Below, piece by piece: positions 3,128 to 37,680 of a DNA stretch of 64,000 nt (position 1 is the first letter of the stretch; every line of letters begins with the position of its first letter). The notes below the pieces were generated by a model. The model had not been told where the DNA came from, did not search any database, and saw nothing but the letters and a program-made list of their open reading frames with translations. This stretch comes from Mobula hypostoma (Eukaryota), in NCBI RefSeq assembly GCF_963921235.1, contig NC_086097.1:33978001-34042000 (forward strand). The letters are read 5' to 3'. The translations under genes and the position numbers were made by a program.

Positions 3128-3572
3128 AATGGCAATGAATGGGTGAACATTTGAGGGGCATTTGATGGCTCTAGGCCTGTACTCGCTGGAGTTCAGAATA
3201 ATGAGTGGAATCTCACTAAAACCTATCGAATAGTGAAAGGTCCCAGTAGAGTGGATGTGGAGAGGATGTTTCCTATAGTGGGGGAATCTAGAACCAGGAG
3301 GCACAGCCTCAGAATAGAAGCTTTAGAATACAGGTAAGGAGGAATTTCTTCAAGCAGAGGGTGGTGAATATATGGAATTCATTGCCACAGATGGCTGTGG
3401 AGGCCAAGTTACTGGGTATATTTAAAGCGGAGGTTGATTAGCAAGGATGTCAGATGTTATGGAGATAAGGCAGAAAAACGGGGTTGAGAGAGATGATAAA
3501 TCAGCCATGATGAAATGATGGAACAGACTCGATGGGCCAAATGGCCTAAGTTTGCTTCTGGATCTTATGACC
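3128..3572 (+). mobile_element. CR1 LINE 3' fragment
   Basis: Degenerate LGLYSLEFRRMRG...SRTRGHSLRI coding plus the CR1 3' UTR. Confidence 0.8.
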
Positions 3573-4075
3573 TAGTGTCATTTATGTTGTTATCAATGTT
3601 AAACTTTTTTCTCCTGTGTAAGCAAACCCAAGTGCCTTACACTGTGGATTAGCTTATCATCACAGTTTAACCCAGTGAAGAAGTTTATCCAAAATGTTTA
3701 ATGTGAAACCTGTTCGATGGAAGTCAAAGGTATTAACCTGAATTTTTAACATCAGTAAATGTTTATAGAAAGTCCAACATAGTGCTATAAAAATGTTTAA
3801 TTTTTCTTTTACACATCTATTTTTTCTTTTGCTTGGTAATGCATAAATATCTTCAATTTGGCAGTGGCTGTCTTATCCTTTGTACCATGCCTGGGATTAT
3901 GGTTTCAGGTTGGTAATGTACCTGTATCGAACTAAGAACGACAGCATGGAACATTCCTGCTTTAGAAAGGCTAAAGAAAAAAGAACACATTCTCTGATAA
4001 ATTATTCTCCCTGCAATGCGATCATATTGTGCATAATTATGGATAATAAGAAAAACAAATAATTTGAAAACTTAC

Positions 4076-6524: not shown

Positions 6525-8033
6525 GGATCTAGTGCTTTCCCGGTGTATATGCCGAATAAACTCTTCTTTGGCTTCCAGCCAGGTACAGGTATCGACCGTA
6601 ACAGGCGATTTGATGACAAACTCCGCCATCTTCATCAGGGATGATGTCTGGGCATGTCTTGTCCTGTGATATTTATACCCCCGTCATCCGTTCCTCCTGA
6701 TTGGTTAGTCCTTATCCAATCATGTTTCCACCGTCCTACCTTGCTTACAATCGAATTCCAGTTTTTACTTACAGTGAGATCTTTGTCTTTGTTAAAATTC
6801 TTTTCCTCTAGATTTATTTCAATGGCTTCCTTCACCAGACGGTCCCAAAAGCCAATGGTACGGTTCAATAGTTTCGTGCTCTCAAAGTCAGTCCTAGGGC
6901 CATTGCAAATGCAGTATTACGCTTACCTGATTTCTCCAGGTAACCCAAATGTATGCATCTCCTGTGCTCCTTGATGCTGGTTTCCACTGTGCATCAGTGT
7001 CTGGCCGATATACGCTGTTCTGCATTCACAGGGAGTCCTGTAAATGACAGCCATCCTGAATCCCAGGTCAACTTTGACCCACGGTAGCTGTGATTTGAGC
7101 TTTCTTACAGGTTTGTGGATGGTATTGATCCAGTATTTCTTCAGGATTCTGGCGATCCTTCCAGAAACTGTGGAAATTTAGGGAAGACAGGCGGTAGTAA
7201 TGGGTTCCTCCTCATTGTTAGGTTTCCTGGATTTTCTGTCAGCTCTTTTAAGGGCCCGATTGATTTCTTTCACTTTATAGCCATTCTGTAGGAACATTGT
7301 GTGTAATCACCTTATTTCCTCGTGAAGACTCTCCGGGTTCAAAATAGTTTAAAAGGGCTGATGGAAAAACTAGGAAACCTAACGATGAAGAGGAACCCTT
7401 CACTACTGCCTGTCTTCCTGATATTTCCACAGTTTCTGGAAGGATTGCCAGAACCTTGAAGAAGTACCAGATTAATACCATCCACAAACCTGTAAGGAAA
7501 CTCAATTCACAGCTTATGCAGGTCAAAGATGACCTGGGATTCAGGACGGATGGCATTTACAGGATACCCTGTGAATGCAGAGCAGTGTATATCAGCATGG
7601 TGGAGACCCTCGTCAAGGAGCACAGGAGGTGCATCCATTTGGGAAACCTGGAGAAATCAGGTAAGCGTAATACTGCATTTGCAATGGCCCTAGGACTGAC
7701 TTTGACAGCACGAAACTATTGAGCCGTACCATTGGCTTTTGGGACTGTCTGGTGAAGAAAGCCATTGAAATAAAACTAGAGGAAAAGAATTTTAACAACG
7801 GCAAAGGTCTCACTCTAAGTCAAAACTGGAATTCGATTGTATACAAGGTGGGAAAACAGAAACCTGATTAGATGAGGACTAATCAATCAGGAGGGATGAA
7901 TGACAGGGGTATAAACACTAACGGACTAGACATGTCCAGGCATCATTCCTGATGAAGATGGCAGTCTGTGATCGAAACGTCAGTTAAAATCAATACCTGT
8001 ACTCTGCTGGAAACCTGAGAATAGTTTATTCAT
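6525..8033. mobile_element. Penelope-like (GIY-YIG) insertion made of two inverted 5'-truncated arms
   Basis: Right arm (+, ~7345-8033) encodes GIYRIPCECRAVYI...IKEH (GIY-YIG). Left arm (-, ~6545-7340) is its reverse complement. 13-bp direct repeat aataatgttaata at 6512-6524 and 8034-8046. Confidence 0.85.
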
Positions 8034-19076: not shown

Positions 19077-19978
19077 TACTTTATACTTTATTGTCACCAA
19101 ACAATTGATACTAGAACGTACAATCATCACAGCGATATTTGATTCTGCGCTTCCCGCTCCCTGGATTACAAATCGATAGTAAATATTAAAAATTTAAATT
19201 ATAAATCATAAATAGAAAATAGAAAAAATGGAAAGTAAGGTAGTGAAAAAAAACCGAGAGGCAGGTCCGGATATTTGGAGGGAACGGCCCAGATCCGGGT
19301 CAGGATCCGTTCAGCAGTCTTATCACAGTTGGAAAGAAGCTGTTCCCAAATCTGGCCGTACGAGTCTTCAAGCTCCTGAGCCTTCTCCCAGAGGGAAGAA
19401 GGATGAAAAGTGTGTTGGCTGGGTGGGTCGTGTCCTTGATTATCCTGGCAGCACTGCTCCGACAGCGTGCGGTATAAAGTGAGTCCAAGGACGGAAGATT
19501 GGTTTGTGTGATGTGCTGCGCCGTGTTCATGATCTTCTGCAGCTTCTCCCAGTCTTGGACAGGACAACTTCCATACCAGGTTGTGATGCACCCTAGAAGA
19601 ATGCTTTCTACGGTGCATCTATAAAAATTAGTGAGGGTTTTAGGGGACAGGCCAAATTTCTTTAGTTTTCTCAGGAAGTAAAGGTGCTGGTGGGCCTTCT
19701 TGGCAGTGGACTCTGCTTGGTTGGTCCAAGTCAGGTCATTTGTGATATTGACCCTGAGGGACTTAAAGCTTTTGACCTGTTCCACTTGCGCATCACCGAT
19801 GTAAATTGGGTCGTGCGGTCTACTACTCCTTCTGAAGTCAACAACCAATTCCTTTGTCTTGCTGATGTTGAGGGATAGGTTATTGTCTTCGCACCATGCC
19901 ACCAGGTTCTTAATTTCCTCTCTGTACTCAAAGTCATCATTACCCGAGATACGGCCTGCAATTGTTGTGTCATCAGCA
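19077..19978 (-). mobile_element. Rex1/Babar-like LINE 3' part (RT C-terminus)
   Basis: ORF 19300-19902 WCEDNNLSLNISKTKELVVDFRR...FYRCTVESILLGCITTWYG...RFGNSFFP; (tataaag)n tail. Confidence 0.88.
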
Positions 19979-20084
19979 CCTTCGCCAGAAGGACTGCAGA
20001 GATTCGAAGGAGTAGCAATAGGCAGTAAAGTGTGAAAATCAGAACCCCAAAGCCTTAGGTCCTACACCACCAATTTCAGATAGC

Positions 20085-22833: not shown

Positions 22834-23595
22834 CCTTAAAGAATATAACTCTAGGCACAAGGACAACTTCAATCCTCCTGTTATAAGACTGTCTGACAAA
22901 GATTAATTCTTTACCTCACAATCGATCTCATCATGCCAGGCTTGCATTGCACTTTCATTTAACTGTATCACAGTATCCTGTGTTATGCTATTCATTTTTC
23001 CCTGTACTACCTTGATGTACTGATATAGTGAAATGAACTGTTATGGATGGCATGTAAAACAATTTTTCACTGAACCTCAGTACATATGACAATAATAAAC
23101 CAATTATCAAGCTCCATATGCAAAACACACACATAAACACAAGAAAATCTGCAGATGCTGTCAATCCAAGCAACACACACAAAATGCTGGAGGAATTCAG
23201 CATCCGGGCAGTGTCTATGGAAAAAATACAGTCGACATTTCAGGCTGAGACCCTTCATCAGGACTGGAAAGGAAAATGAGAAGTCAGAGTAGGAAGGTGA
23301 GGGGCGGGGAGGAAAAGTACAAGGTGGTAGGTAATAGGTGAAACTGGGAGAGGGAGAGGGGTGAAGTAAAGAGCTGGGAAGTGATTGGAGAAAGAGATTG
23401 TGGTGACATCAAATGCAATAATGTGCCAGTACATGATTGGACAGAGCACTGAGCATGTGCGATTGCCAGAATGTTCAGCACGTGGCTGGGTTAAGACGTG
23501 TTTGTTTATTACTGTAAATAAAAGTTCTCTAATTCTTCCAGAATATGATTCTTTACTGTTAACCCATGGTACGTTTAAACAGAAGTAACATAACA

Positions 23596-23610
23596 TGGTG
23601 TCAGAAGTGG
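23596..23610 (+). other. Primer-binding site tggtgtcagaagtgg
   Basis: Complementary to the 3' end of vertebrate tRNA-Leu (…CCACTTCTGACACCA) and immediately follows the LTR. Confidence 0.85.
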
Positions 23611-23701
23611 TTCTGGAAGAATAATACGGGAGAATCGAGAATCAAGAATCGAAGATAATTGAAAGAAAGAGAAGATAAAAGTTCGAACTGTAAACGGTAA
23701 A

Positions 23702-25134
23702 ATGGAAGGTTTACAACCCCCACCAAAACTTCAGCTGACTGGCAACGTAGCTGAGAATTGGAGGATATTCAAACAACAGTTTGAAATATATTTATCGGCA
23801 ATCGGAGCTGATAGAAAAGTGGACAAAACTAACGCTGCAATCCTGCTCCATGTAATTGGGAATGACACAGTAGAGGTATATAACAATTTTGTCTTTGAAG
23901 ATGGAGATAATTTCAATTTGAAGTTGGTAAAGAACAGATCTGAAGTATTTTGTATACCTTAGTGTAATTTAACATATGAGCGATTTAAATACTTCACACG
24001 TGCGCAGAGAGCTACTGCAACAATCGATCAGTATGCGACTGAGTTAAGAAAGTGTAGTAGAATGTGTAAATTTGGATTGCTCACAGACTCTCTTATTAAA
24101 GATAGACTAGTTAGTGGCATTCGAAATAATGCACTGAGAGAAAGGCTTTTGCGTGAGCAAGATTTAAATTTTGAAAAAGCTTTCGCGCTCTGCAAAGCTT
24201 CTGAGACCGTAATGTCGCAGGCCGAAGAGCTTTTTGTCGAAAACTGCAATGTAAATGCCGTAAAAAAGCGCAAATATATCAAGATATATAATAATACGTC
24301 GACAAAACCAACAGGGAGTAAGACAGCGTTTGAAAGAAAAAAGTCATGTGATCGCTGTGTGTGGGAACATCGCCTAAATCAGTGTTTCGCATATGGCAAT
24401 ATTTGTTACAACTGGGTAAGATTAATAATTTTTCGCGCTGTTGTAGAAGTAGAAAGAAGGAAAATAAAATGAAACAAGTAAATGCAGTGATTGAAGATGA
24501 CCGTGAGGAATTTTATATCGATGCGCTTTATGAAAATGCTGACATGGAGAATATAAAAGCAGTAGATGCAGTGTCTGAGACGACCAAACAGGAGGCAATT
24601 GATGATTTGAAAAAGCATTGGGAGGAGGAGGTTGCTTCAGTGCAAGCCATAATGAAAGAGACACTGAGAGAATATGAGATTCAGTCTAATCACCGGCTAG
24701 AGCAAGAACACTCACAGTGGGCACAGTATAAGGAAGAAGTGAAAGCACAAGTGAAGGAATTGAGAAGTTGTATTGAAATGATGAAGTCGCAGCATGAAAA
24801 AGAGATTACACAGTTAATGAATGAATTAGATGAAGAAAAGAAGATTTGTATTTCATTACAAATGGAAGTGGAAGGAGATAGGAAAGATACAGTCCAAACA
24901 GAAGCAGGGAAGCAGATTGCTGAGGAAGATAGCATGAACTGTTTACCTGAAATTCCGGATTCTATCCAGGAGGCATGTGAGAGTATACCAAAAAGTTTAG
25001 TTGAGGTACACAAAGAAAAGCTTAAAGCAGAAAAGAAGAAGACAAAGAAGAATCACAAGAAGAGTCATGGCTCAGAGAGCGAAAAGCCATCTTCAGAGTT
25101 TCAGTTAGCTGATATAGATTTGTTTATTGGTTAA
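23702..25134 (+). pseudogene. Chimeric Gag-RABEP1-SH3KBP1 ORF (~477 aa reconstructed; one TAG at 23960-23962 and one 1-nt frameshift near 24413)
   Basis: Gag: LQLTGNVAENWRIFKQQFEIYL...IKDRLVSGIRNNALRERLLRE, then tandem CCHC knuckles (CDRCxxxHxxxxC; CYN[C][10 protein letters not shown]). The frame then stays open through host-like coiled coils to TAA at 25132-25134. Confidence 0.85.
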
Positions 25135-26226
25135 TGTTGTTATCTGTTTTTCTTTTTAAGGAAAGGAAGATGTGATTCTTCAGACGAATGCAGACGAATG
25201 CAGACGAGACAAAACATGTAAATAATAACAAGGAAACACAAGATCTGTGTGTACCACTTAGAAGGTCTACTCATGTTCGTAAACCCACAGAGAGACTGAT
25301 AGAGACTTGTTGAATTATGTATTTGCTTTGATTAACGTTGTTAATTATTTTTTTAAGGAAAGGAAGATGTGGTGATATCATGTGCAATGATGTGCCAGTA
25401 CACGATTGGACAGAGCACTGAGAATGCGCCAGGTTGCCAGAATGTTCCAGCACGTGGCTGGGTTAAGATGTGTTTGTTTATTACTGTAAATAAAAGTTCT
25501 CTAATTCTTCCAGAATAATATTCTTTACTGTTAACCCATGGTATGTTTAAACAGAAGTAACATAACAGAGATAAAGGGGGAATCTGATAGGAGATGGTAG
25601 AAGACCACAGGAGAATGGGAAAGGGGAGGAGCACCAGAGGAGGTGATGAGCAGGTAAAGAGATAAAGGAGATAAGGAGAGAGCAGGAAACAGGAATGGGG
25701 GAACAGTGAAGGAGTGGGGCCGGCGATTACTGGAAGTTCGAGAAATCGATGTTCATGCCATCAGGTATAAGGTGTTGCTCCTACAGCCTGGTTGTGGCCT
25801 CTTTGCGGAAGTAGAGGAGGCCATGGACCGTCATGTCAGATTGGGATTCAGAAGTAGAATTGAAATGGGTGGCTACTGGGAGATACTGCTTTTTCTGGCA
25901 GACGGAGTAATCTCCATATATCTTGATTCCCTTAAGAGTTATAAATCTTTCAAGACTTGCCTTGAATATACACAACAGATGAGCCTCCACAGCTCTTTAG
26001 GGAAGTAACTTCTAAAGAGGTGTTTTTGTGCTAAGTGGTTAACTCATTTTGCATCTGGGAAACTTGGTTCTAAGTACCTCATACCAGGGAAAGATCAACA
26101 CCTACTTCAGTGAGATCACCCCTTATTCTTCTAATTTTAAGAGTATAGGCCTAGTCTTAATCTCTCCAAGTATGACAAGTCTGCTAACCTGGGAATCAAT
26201 CTGTTGAACCTTCACTGCAATCCCTC

Positions 26227-33660: not shown

Positions 33661-36600
33661 TCTCTAAGCCTCCCGGACATCTACATCTGCGCCAAGTGCA
33701 GCGAGATGCAGCTCCTAAGGGACTGTGTTACGGAACTGGAGCTGCAGCTCGATGACCTTCGTCTGGTCAGGGAGAGTGAGGAGTTGATAGAGAGGAGTTA
33801 TAGGCAGGTGGTCACACCGGGGCCACAGGAGGCAGACAAGTGGGTCACGGTTAGGAGGGGGAAGAGGAAGAGTCAGGTAATAGAGAGTACCCCGGTGGCT
33901 GTGCCCCTTGTCAATAGGTACTCCTGTTTGAGTACGGTTGGGGGGGGACAGCTTACCCAGGGGAAGCGACAGTGGCCGTGCCTCCGGCACAGAGTCCGGC
34001 CCTGTAGCTCAGAAGGGTAGGGAAAGGAAGAGGAGGGCAGTTGTGATAGGGGACTCGATAGTAAGGGGGTCAGATAGGTGATTCTGTGGACGCAGTCCAG
34101 AGACCCGGATGGTAGTTTGCCTCCCTGGTGCCAGGGTCCGGGATATTTCTGATCGTGTTCAAGATATCCTGAAGTGGGAGGGTGAGGAGCCAGAGGTCAT
34201 GGTACATATAGGTACCAATGACATAGGTAGGAAAAGGGAAGAGGTCCTGAAAGGAGAATATAGGGAGCTAGGAAGGGAGTTGAGAAAAAGGACCGCAAAG
34301 GTAGTAATCTCAGGATTACTGCCTGTGCCACGCGACAGTGAGAGTAGGAATGCGAAGAGGTGGAGGATAAATACGTGGCTGAGGGATTGGAGCAGGAGGC
34401 AGGGATTCAAGTTTTTGGATGATTGGGACCTCTTTTGGCGCAGGCGTGACCTGTACAAAAAGGACGGGTTACACTTGAATCCTAGGGGGACCAATATCCT
34501 GGCAGGGAGATTAGCGAGGGCTACTGAGGTGACTTTAAACTAGAATGGTTGGGGGGTGGGAATCAAATTAAAGAGGCTAGGCGAGAGGAGGTTAGTTCAC
34601 AACAGGGGGATGGAAACCAGTGCAGAGAGACAGAGGGGTGTAAAGTGAAGGTAGAAGCAAAAAGTAGTAAGGAGAAAAGTAAAAGTGGCAGGCCGACAAA
34701 TCCAGGGCAAGCATCAAAAAGGGCCACTTTTCAACATACTTGTATAAGGGCTAAGAGAGTTGTAAAAGAGCGCCTGAAGGCTTTGTGTGTCAATGCAAGG
34801 AGCATTTGTAACAAGGTGGATGAATTGAAAGTGCAGATTGTTATTAATGATTATGATATAGTTGGGATCACGGAGACATGGCTCCAGGGTGACCAAGGAT
34901 GGGAGCTCAACGTTCAGGGATATTCAATATTCAGGAGGGATAGACATGAAAGAAAAGGAGGTGGGGTGGCGTTGCTGGTTAAAGATGAGATTAACGCAAT
35001 AGAAGGGAAGGACATAAGCTGGGAAGATGTGGAATCGATATGGGTAAAGCTGCGTAACACTAAGGGGCAGAAAACACTGGTGGGAGTCGTGTACAAGCCA
35101 CCTAACAGTAGTAGTGAGGTCGGAGATGGTATTAAACAGGAAATTAGAAATGTGTGCAATAAAGGAACGGCAGTTATAATGGGTGACTTCAATCTACATG
35201 TAGATTGGGTGAACCAAATTGGTAAAGGTGCTGAGGAAGAGGATTTCTTGGAATGTATGCGGGATGGTTTTTTGAACCAACATGTCGAGGAACCAACTAG
35301 AGAGCAGGCTATTCTAGACTGGGTTTTGAGCAATGAGGAAGGGTTAATTAGCAATCTTGTCATGAGAGGCCCCTTGGGTAAGAGTGACCATAATATGGTG
35401 GAATTCTTCATTAAGATGGAGAGTGACATAGTTAATTCAGAAACAAAGGTTCTGAACTTAAAGTGGGGTAACTTTGAAGGTATGAGACGTGAATTAGCTA
35501 AGACAGACTGGCAAGTGACACTTAAAGGATTGATGGTGGATATGCAATGGCAAGCATTTAAGAATTGCATGGATGAACTACAACAATTGTTCATCCCAGT
35601 TTGGCAAAAGAATAAATCAAGGAAGGTAGTGCACCCGTGGCTGACAAGAGAAATTAGGGATTGTATCAATTCCAAAGAAGAAGCATACAAATTAGCCAGA
35701 AAAAGTGGCTCACCTGAGGACTGGGAGAAATTCAGAGTTCAGCAGAGGAGGGCAAAGAGCTTAGTTAGGAAGGGGAAAAAAGATTATGAGAGAAAGCTGG
35801 CAGGGAACATAAAAACTGACTGTAAAAGCTTTTATAGATATGTAAAAAGGAAAAGATTGGTAAAGACAAATGTAGGTCCCCTACAGACAGAAACAGGTGA
35901 ATTGATTATGGGGAACAAGGACATGGCAGACCAATTGAATAATTACTTTGGTTCTGTCTTCACTAAGGAGGACATAAATAATCTTCCAGAAATAGTAGGG
36001 GACAGAGGGTCCAGTGAGATGGAGGAACTGAGCGAAATACATGTTAGTAGGGAAGTGGTGTTGGGTAAATTGAAGGGATTAAAGGCAGATAAATCCCCAG
36101 GGCCAGATGGTCTGCATCCCAGAGTGCTTAAGGAAGTAGCCCAAGAAATAGTGGATGCATTAGTGACAATTTTTCAAAACTCGTTAGATTCTGGACTAGT
36201 TCCTGAGGATTGGAGGGTGGCTAATGTAACCCCACTTTTTAAAAAAGGAGGGAGAGAGAAACCGGGGAATTATAGACCGGTTAGCCTAACGTCAGTGGTG
36301 GGGAAACTGCTGGAGTCAGTTATCAAAGATGTGATAACAGCACATTTGGAAAGCGGTGAAATCATCGGACAAAGTCAGCATGGATTTGTGAAAGGAAAAT
36401 CATGTCTGACGAATCTCATAGAATTTTTTGAGGATGTAACTAGTAGAGTGGATAGGGGAGAACCAGTGGATGCGGTATATTTGGATTTTCAAAAGGCTTT
36501 TGACAAGGTCCCACACAGGAGATTAGTGTGCAAACTTAAAACACACGGTATTGGGGGTAAGGTATTGATGTGGATAGAGAATTGGTTAGCAGACAGGAAG

Positions 36601-37680
36601 CAAAGAGTGGGAGTAAACGGGACCTTTTCAGAATGGCAGGCAGTGACTAGTGGGGTACCACAAGGCTCAGTGCTGGGACCCCAGTTGTTTACAATATATA
36701 TTAATGACTTGGATGAAGGAATTAAATGCAGCATCTCCAAGTTTGCGGATGACACGAAGCTGGGCGGCAGTGTTAGCTGTGAGGAGGATGCTAAGAGGAT
36801 GCAGGGTGACTTGGATAGGTTGGGTGAGTGGGCAAATTCATGGCAGATGCAATTTAATGTGGATAAATGTGAAGTTATCCACTTTGATGGCAAAAATAGG
36901 AAAACAGATTATTATCTGAATGGTGGCTGATTAGGAAAAGGGGAGGTGCAACGAGACCTGGGTGTCATTATACACCAGTCATTGAAAGTGGGCATGCAGG
37001 TACAGCAGGCGGTGAAAAAGGCGAATGGTATGCTGGCATTTATAGCAAGAGGATTCGCGAACAGGAGCAGGGAGGTACTACTGCAGTTGTACAAGGCCTT
37101 GGTGAGACCACACCTGGAGTATTGTGTGCAGTTTTGGTCCCCTAATCTGAGGAAAGACATCCTTGCCATAGAGGGAGTACAAAGAAGGTTCACCAGAATG
37201 ATTCCTGGGATGGCAGGACTTTCATATGAAGAAAGACTGGATGAACTGGGCTTGTACTTGTTGGAATTTAGAAGATTGAGGGGGGATCTGATTGAAACGT
37301 ATAAAATCCTAAAGGGATTGGACAGGCTAGATGCAGGAAGATTGTTCCCGATGTTGGGGAAGTCCAGAACGAGGGGTCACAGTTTGAGGATAAAGGGGAA
37401 GCCTTTTAGGACCGAGATGAGGAAAAACTTCTTCACACAGAGAGTGGAGAATCTGCGGAATTCTCTGCCACAGGAAACAGTTGAGGCCAGTTCATTGGCT
37501 ATATTTAAGAGGGAGTTAGATATGGCCCTTGTGGCTACGGGGATCAGGGGGTATGGAGGGAAGGTTGGTGCAGGGTTCTGAGTTGGATGATCAGCCATGA
37601 TCATAATAAATGGCGGTGCAGGCTCGAAGGGCCGAATGGCCTACTCCTGCCCCTATTTTCTATGTTTCTAAGTTTCTATG
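33661..37680 (+). mobile_element. Young, nearly full-length CR1 LINE: ORF1 (SGNH esterase) + ORF2 (APE + RT)
   Basis: ORF1 motifs VIGDSIVRG, GTNDI, DGLHL. ORF2 34549-37581 has GVPQGSVLGP and FADD and only one in-frame TGA (36928-36930). (tttctatg)n tail. Confidence 0.96.

What the first reader, a model, noticed from the sequence alone, without database searches (positions are those of the whole stretch)
24733..24873. Captured CIN85 (SH3KBP1) C-terminal coiled coil joined directly to the RABEP1 piece
[47 protein letters not shown] matches the recalled human CIN85 end [47 protein letters not shown] much better than CD2AP. The junction falls in a gaagaa (EE) stretch that could belong to either donor, as expected for RT template switching at microhomology (inference). 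The join keeps the frame and would give one continuous helix built from two unlinked genes.
Basis: partly seen in the sequence, partly recalled or inferred. Interest (0 to 1): 0.75.

Follow-up and report, generated by a model that had tools for sequence, protein, structure and literature searches.

The report
Ray retrotransposon fusing captured host genes
In a dead copy of a crippled jumping gene of rays, a spliced piece of the host gene CIN85 (SH3KBP1) is joined in reading frame to a spliced piece of the unlinked gene RABEP1; the join likely arose when two sister elements, each carrying one piece, recombined during copying, and it then spread to at least 62 places.

Summary
Observation confirmed. 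Window 24733-24886 is spliced SH3KBP1 mRNA: 147/154 nt identical to the host exons, two introns missing, 44/47 residues against 12/43 for CD2AP. It is joined in frame to spliced RABEP1 (24534-24732) at GAAG (10 of 12 bases alike), and a third capture, SLU7, follows. All lie in a 2.2-kb gypsy-type LTR element that lacks its copying enzymes. The three host genes are on different contigs. The same genome holds RABEP1-only and SH3KBP1-only sister elements whose capture ends match this one, so the join is best read as template switching between two element RNAs, not a fresh capture from host mRNA. All 15 capture, recombination and deletion junctions examined keep the frame (rough null 3e-5), and gag shows purifying selection while these pol-less elements spread (p=1e-5). 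The captured residues show no significant constraint (p=0.19). So the fusion was likely translated because the element needed an open gag frame, and the coils were likely passengers. This copy is dead. The mechanism is known (Tan 2016; maize Bs1; mouse IAP 1Δ1). The scan has reported this family before on other copies.

The parts
23394..23398 (+). 5' copy of the target-site duplication (GAGAT); the 3' copy is at 25568-25572
23399..23595 (+). 5' LTR (TG..CA)
   Evidence: K2P distance to the 3' LTR 0.064
23596..23610 (+). Primer-binding site; tRNA-Leu-like (identity of the tRNA recalled, not tested)
23702..24533 (+). Gypsy-type gag, broken: stop at 23960-23962 and a frameshift near the zinc knuckle; joined to RABEP1 by a deletion of the protease and the first 78 nt of the RABEP1 capture
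24534..24732 (+). Spliced RABEP1 cDNA piece (exon joint at 24658/24659), 188/199 nt identical to host exons
24733..24744 (+). RABEP1/SH3KBP1 switch point: GAAG shared exactly, 10 of 12 bases alike
24733..24886 (+). Spliced SH3KBP1 (CIN85) C-terminal coiled-coil piece from the last three coding exons (joints at 24797/8 and 24861/2), 147/154 nt identical
24887..24900 (+). Remnant of the integrase tail, with the junction of the SH3KBP1-only subfamily and an in-frame 33-nt deletion
24901..25083 (+). Spliced SLU7 cDNA piece from three exons (joints at 24921/2 and 25005/6), 162/183 nt identical
25084..25134 (+). Integrase-tail remnant ending the chimeric frame (stop 25132-25134)
25135..25367 (+). 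Duplicated 3' end: first polypurine tract and LTR-like TGTG at 25158-25174, then integrase tail, 3' UTR and second polypurine tract (25355-25367)
25368..25567 (+). 3' LTR (TG..CA)

Best explanation
This is a dead copy of a pol-less gypsy-type LTR retrotransposon whose interior carries spliced RABEP1, SH3KBP1 and SLU7 pieces, and the RABEP1/SH3KBP1 join likely arose by reverse-transcriptase template switching between two co-packaged sister elements that each carried one capture. Shown: RABEP1-only and SH3KBP1-only elements, in which the host piece replaces most of pol between microhomologies; three kinds of RABEP1/SH3KBP1 recombinant; SLU7 inserted in the integrase tail; full-length pol-bearing relatives with the same LTR. 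Inferred: each capture came from a host mRNA packaged in the particle; the chimeras were copied by helper enzymes in trans; only variants with one open frame from gag to a stop near the 3' LTR spread, likely because the element's own Gag fusion acts in cis or because translation to the 3' end protects the RNA. The captured coils were likely passengers that are compatible with that frame.
For: Spliced, sense captures. Single-capture types: RABEP1-only 2 loci (L039, L040), SH3KBP1-only 17 loci (L051-L067); RABEP1-SH3KBP1-RABEP1 9 loci; a second, independent RABEP1/SH3KBP1 join in L042; two-capture copies without SLU7, L111-L114. All RABEP1 types that keep the 5' end start at the same base; the SH3KBP1 3' junction is shared by the SH3KBP1-only type, L042, L111-L114 and (with one substitution and a 33-nt deletion) the window type. 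Microhomologies of 4-8 nt at the six capture junctions with pol examined plus the SLU7 ends. 18 of 20 fetched RT hits are full-length relatives, 6 with the window's LTR/gag subtype. 15 of 15 junctions in frame; measured chance of frame given such homology 0.34-0.8; product about 3e-5; scattered indels in the captures are 48 of 64 frameshifting. Gag in 35 window-type copies: singletons 280 non-synonymous or stop vs 77 synonymous; variants in 4 or more copies 27 vs 29, p=1e-5; for alleles not segregating outside this type 12 vs 12, p=0.004. Captured pieces: 228:47 vs 20:8, p=0.19.
Against: The SH3KBP1 3' junction sits on a 7-nt microhomology, so an independent capture at the same spot is not impossible. 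No non-CpG allele shared only by the SH3KBP1-only type and the chimeras was found. L111-L113 carry window-type alleles and a purine run resembling SLU7, so they may be back-recombinants, not ancestors. Strong homologies between these two genes are mostly in frame anyway (20 of 25 at 10/12), so this one join needs no selection. The junction set is post hoc and not fully independent; one join (L042) is a single copy. Shared gag variants may partly be imported from helpers (32 of 56 have both alleles outside this type). Over all types, shared changes in the captures are somewhat enriched for synonymous ones (p=0.028), though this mixes in host-branch changes.
Confidence: 0.7

Rival explanations
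1. The SH3KBP1 piece was captured afresh from host mRNA into a RABEP1-carrying element, independently of the SH3KBP1-only subfamily.
For: The microhomology at the join is the same whichever RNA was the template; no diagnostic allele ties the chimeric piece to the SH3KBP1-only copies.
Against: The window type keeps the same SH3KBP1-to-integrase junction as the SH3KBP1-only type, and RABEP1/SH3KBP1 switches occurred at three different points, which is expected if both partners were abundant packaged element RNAs.
Confidence: 0.1
2. The captured coiled coils were themselves useful to the element: fused to Gag they would add oligomerisation or endosome tethering and favour packaging of their own RNA.
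For: All three captures are predicted helical and charged; RABEP1 and SH3KBP1 both act in endocytosis (recalled); the chimeric types are numerous (62 exact junction matches); shared changes lean synonymous (odds ratio 1.9, not significant; p=0.028 across types).
Against: Constraint on the captures is not significant and weaker than on gag; the pieces were repeatedly trimmed, nested and swapped; A/G-rich coil-coding mRNA offers many chance microhomologies.
Confidence: 0.13
3. Frame keeping is only a by-product of codon-periodic microhomology and of how the copies were found; no translation was needed.
For: In-frame share of homologies is well above one third: 0.39-0.55 for pol against host, up to 0.8 for RABEP1 against SH3KBP1.
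Against: 15 of 15 in frame is still about 3e-5 under those rates; gag is constrained in pol-less copies; one SH3KBP1 5' junction uses a 5-nt in-frame match beside a 10-nt out-of-frame one.
Confidence: 0.07

Closest known systems
LTR-mediated retroposition chimeras of animals (Tan et al. 2016, PMC5131818; abstract and term-found passages read)
   Same: Partial mRNA copies inside a discontinuous LTR element, microsimilarity at switch points, several parental genes in one retrocopy, secondary retroposition.
   Different: Here single-capture parents, several recombinants and helpers all survive; the join between genes is traced to element-element recombination; the junction is present in at least 62 copies; every junction keeps the gag frame.
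Maize Bs1 (as described in passages of PMC5131818; the original papers not read)
   Same: Pieces of three unlinked genes in one LTR element, with shared switch points in all copies.
   Different: Bs1 has 1-5 copies and one piece out of frame; this family has far more copies, all pieces in frame, and no intact copy among the 26 window-type copies with two LTRs.
Mouse IAP 1Δ1 (review PMC6466679, passage read; Saito et al. 2008 seen only as a citation)
   Same: Non-autonomous LTR element with an in-frame deletion whose gag fusion protein is reported to act in cis and which outspreads its helper.
   Different: 1Δ1 is an endogenous retrovirus and fuses gag to pol; here a gypsy gag is fused to host coils, and the cis role is inferred from sequence only.
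Defective transforming retroviruses with two host genes, such as avian E26 gag-myb-ets (recalled; one search gave only a listing)
   Same: Gag fused in frame to pieces of two unlinked host genes in place of pol, needing a helper.
   Different: No env, germ-line retrotransposon, no sign of an effect on the host.

Membership tests
LTR-mediated chimeric retrocopy (Tan 2016) | Partial host mRNA inside a discontinuous LTR element | tested here: met
LTR-mediated chimeric retrocopy (Tan 2016) | Introns lost | tested here: met
   five exon joints crossed in the window copy
LTR-mediated chimeric retrocopy (Tan 2016) | Microsimilarity at switch points | tested here: met
LTR-mediated chimeric retrocopy (Tan 2016) | Secondary retroposition of the chimera | tested here: met
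   62 exact junction matches, control 0; 5-bp target duplications exact in 9 and one base off in 11 of 26 copies
LTR-mediated chimeric retrocopy (Tan 2016) | Transcription from the LTR | tested here: inconclusive
   contigs of runs only guessed to be RNA bridge the join; no run on record as RNA
Ty3/gypsy LTR retrotransposon | TG..CA LTRs, primer site, polypurine tract, 5-bp target duplication | tested here: met
Ty3/gypsy LTR retrotransposon | Order protease-RT-RNase H-integrase in the parent element | tested here: met
   P0137 Pfam order, colinear with 18 full-length relatives in this genome; the window copy itself lacks pol
Ty3/gypsy LTR retrotransposon | Clade placement by RT phylogeny | not tested
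   no tree built
IAP 1Δ1-like cis-acting gag fusion | In-frame internal deletion and constrained gag | tested here: met
IAP 1Δ1-like cis-acting gag fusion | Fusion protein needed in cis for mobility | not testable with these tools
   needs an experiment
Functional chimeric retrogene (Bs1-like) | Intact open frame at a locus | tested here: not met
   window gag broken; longest stop-free stretch 107-361 codons in 26 copies against about 477 needed; most copies in the genome not examined
Functional chimeric retrogene (Bs1-like) | Purifying selection on captured codons | tested here: inconclusive
   p=0.19

The most novel reading that the evidence does not exclude
A vertebrate gypsy lineage evolved by shuffling host endocytic coiled coils onto its Gag: RABEP1, CIN85 and SLU7 pieces were captured separately, recombined between elements, and kept because the Gag-coil fusion gave these pol-less parasites an edge in packaging or membrane targeting over their helpers.
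Probability: 0.13. Interest if true: 0.8.

Novelty: new variant of a known kind. Interest (0 to 1): 0.5.

Why it matters
It is an unusually complete record of domain shuffling by an LTR element in a vertebrate germ line: helpers, single captures, recombinants and a triple capture coexist, so switch-site choice and frame selection can be counted rather than guessed. It suggests that a need to translate gag in cis filters captures for in-frame fusions, which would make LTR elements a biased source of ready-made chimeric proteins. It also shows that some public ray gene models (P0002 'RABEP1-like', P0003, P0123) are copies of these elements. No benefit to the host is shown, and the scan has met the family before.

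Tried and rejected
CD2AP as donor: 12/43 residues, and a weaker DNA match. A host gene holding both pieces: the genes lie on C71, C18 and C21. Genomic (unspliced) capture: introns are absent. Expression: no RNA holder listed; 4 of the 23 listed runs were laid; contigs of three of them (X1, X2, X3; RNA only by guess) bridge the join, which shows presence of the join, not transcription. Heptad scan across the join: no clear register on the RABEP1 side. One search found nothing because the gap was set too short; with the right gap found 4 copies. In one search the SLU7 3' junction read 'out' because of a wrong phase anchor, and the RABEP1 3' anchor was not found; one search gave 36 in frame (3 not located) and 9 in frame (2 not located). 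Not counted among the 15 junctions: deletions that join the integrase tail to the 3' UTR, since the downstream side is non-coding. Left out of the typed sets: L068 and L083 (truncated). Literature: 'RABEP1 + SH3KBP1 + retrotransposon' gave 1 paper, a mouse brain study (listing only); searches showed no paper on this family in their listings; subscription papers and Repbase/Dfam were not searchable. No tRNA gene in the window.

Full report
Observation. The 47 residues at 24733-24873 are SH3KBP1. They match PDB chains 2n64_A and 5abs_A (E about 1e-11) and ray SH3KBP1 proteins at 86-90%. Against this genome's own genes they match SH3KBP1 at 44/47 and the CD2AP-like exons at 12/43. The capture extends to 24886, is 147/154 nt identical to the host exons and crosses two exon joints. 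The upstream 199 nt are RABEP1 (188/199 nt) and cross one joint. A third spliced capture, SLU7, lies at 24901-25083 (162/183 nt). The host genes are on three contigs: C71, C18, C21. The closest named homologues are from myliobatiform rays.

The element. The captures lie in a 2,169-bp LTR element (23399-25567): TG..CA LTRs 6.4% apart, a GAGAT target duplication, primer site, polypurine tract and a gypsy-type gag. Pol is gone except for remnants of the integrase tail. Gag has a stop at 23960 and is out of frame with the chimeric stretch, so this copy is dead. A DNA search scored 40 of 534 candidates and all 40 matched at 89-100%. The 26-base junction occurs exactly 62 times, control 0. 12 of the 30 loci hold it exactly, so I estimate 150 or more copies. 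LTR-pair distances are 0.047-0.138, median 0.081, in 26 window-type copies; none of them has an unbroken frame. The same join is in gene models of Hemitrygon akajei and Hypanus sabinus (P0002, P0003).

Relatives. Fetched loci fall into types: A, RABEP1 only (2 loci); B, SH3KBP1 only (17); C, RABEP1-SH3KBP1-RABEP1 (9); D, RABEP1-SH3KBP1-SLU7 with protease (3); E, the window type (36); F, a separate RABEP1/SH3KBP1 join (1); AB, the window's join without SLU7 (4). L068 and L083 were truncated and left untyped. These counts reflect how loci were picked (top hits), not abundance. Of 20 RT hits fetched, 18 are full-length, decayed relatives; 6 have the window's LTR/gag subtype, the others that of A/B. 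Their domain order is that of gypsy (P0137). Captures replace pol between the protease end or RT start and the integrase tail, at microhomologies such as AGAGCT, GTCATAAA, CAAGGAGA and AGAAAGC.

The join. RABEP1 and SH3KBP1 share GAAG exactly and 10 of 12 bases here, among the 25 best window pairs (1.8e-4). All RABEP1 types that keep the 5' end start at the same base, and B, F, AB, D and E share the SH3KBP1 3' junction. I infer one capture of each gene and then switching between element RNAs, at three different points (the window's join, the return switch of C at AGTGGAA, and F at CTGATCT). Against this: no allele links B specifically to the chimeras, and a 7-nt homology could be hit twice. 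A C-specific allele (8 of 9 C, 0 of 37 D/E) indicates D/E did not come from the sampled C. Alleles are mosaic across E and AB, so the later order is a network, and AB may include back-recombinants.

Frame. Ten capture or recombination junctions and five internal deletions were scored copy by copy; all 15 are in frame in the great majority of copies where located (for the window's join 41 in, 3 out, 4 not located of 48). Homology-guided switches are biased to frame: 0.39-0.55 for pol against host, 0.8 for the best RABEP1/SH3KBP1 windows, 0.34-0.45 within pol. The product is still about 3e-5 (0.002 for the ten joins alone). This is a rough, post hoc figure, and the window's join alone needs no selection. 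Indels scattered in the captures are 48 of 64 frameshifting; of those in 4 or more copies two are 3-nt and one is a 1-nt change in an A run.

Selection. In E copies (non-CpG sites), gag singletons are 280 amino-acid-changing to 77 silent, variants in four or more copies 27 to 29 (p=1e-5). For alleles not segregating in other types it is 12 to 12 (p=0.004); 32 of the 56 shared variants do segregate elsewhere and may come from helpers. The captures give 228:47 against 20:8 (p=0.19). Across all types they give p=0.028, but that includes host-branch changes. So gag was likely translated and needed while these pol-less elements spread, and constraint on the host pieces is unproven. A single-sequence fold predicts one 120-residue helix across the join; a heptad scan did not show a continuous register.

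Mechanism. Shown: spliced captures, microhomologies, the types, copy number, frame keeping, gag constraint. Inferred: capture and recombination by template switching in particles, mobilisation by helpers, and a need for an open gag frame (cis-acting Gag fusion or RNA stability). The captured coils are most likely passengers (0.7 for the whole account); useful coils 0.13; fresh capture from host mRNA 0.1; frame as by-product 0.07.

Known kinds. Tan et al. 2016 (PMC5131818; abstract and passages) describe LTR-mediated retrocopies with microsimilarity, several parental genes and secondary retroposition, and cite maize Bs1 (three genes, 1-5 copies, one piece out of frame). A review (PMC6466679, passage) reports that the gag-pol fusion of mouse IAP 1Δ1 acts in cis. 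This family joins the two themes at high copy number. Seven searches (listings only) showed no paper on it; supplements were not read, and repeat libraries were not searchable. The scan's own notes list this family on other copies (8 shown of 911 fitting); I had reached the same reading before that call, and they are not independent support.

Verdict. Real, well supported, a new variant of a known kind; interest 0.5.

Noticed in passing
window 25135-25367: The 3' end is duplicated: a shortened integrase tail, polypurine tract and LTR-like TGTG, then a second integrase tail, UTR and polypurine tract; seen in most window-type copies.
   Followed up: partly
window 24901-25083: The SLU7 piece has Ala and Ile where skate SLU7 (P0122) does and this genome's SLU7 has Val, so the capture likely predates those host changes.
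   Followed up: partly
L051-L053, SH3KBP1 5' junction: The switch uses a 5-nt in-frame match although a 10-nt out-of-frame match lies 5 bases away.
   Followed up: partly
L067 about 3550-3650 (minus strand read): Mosaic junction: pol, 14 nt of SH3KBP1, back to pol, then SH3KBP1 again.
   Followed up: no
L111-L114: A purine run in the integrase tail resembles SLU7 and may be a remnant of it, which would make these copies back-recombinants.
   Followed up: no
L083: Copy in which the 5' LTR runs almost directly into the SLU7 piece; gag, RABEP1 and SH3KBP1 are missing.
   Followed up: no
G000:C66:33008906-33009097: Two exact junction matches 166 bases apart, probably a local duplication.
   Followed up: no
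P0002, P0003, P0123, P0012: Public ray gene models that are copies of these elements (P0002, P0003, P0123); P0012, a Narcine RABEP1 isoform, is listed with an RT domain.
   Followed up: partly
window 34528-36930: 800-codon open frame of a LINE (endonuclease plus RT).
   Followed up: partly
window 6625-7962: About 1.3-kb imperfect palindrome: arms of 368 and 248 nt, 85-88% complementary, 97 nt apart at the centre.
   Followed up: no
window 19303-20061 (minus): Pfam PF09004 hit (E 7e-13); this domain is common at LINE RT ends (recalled).
   Followed up: no
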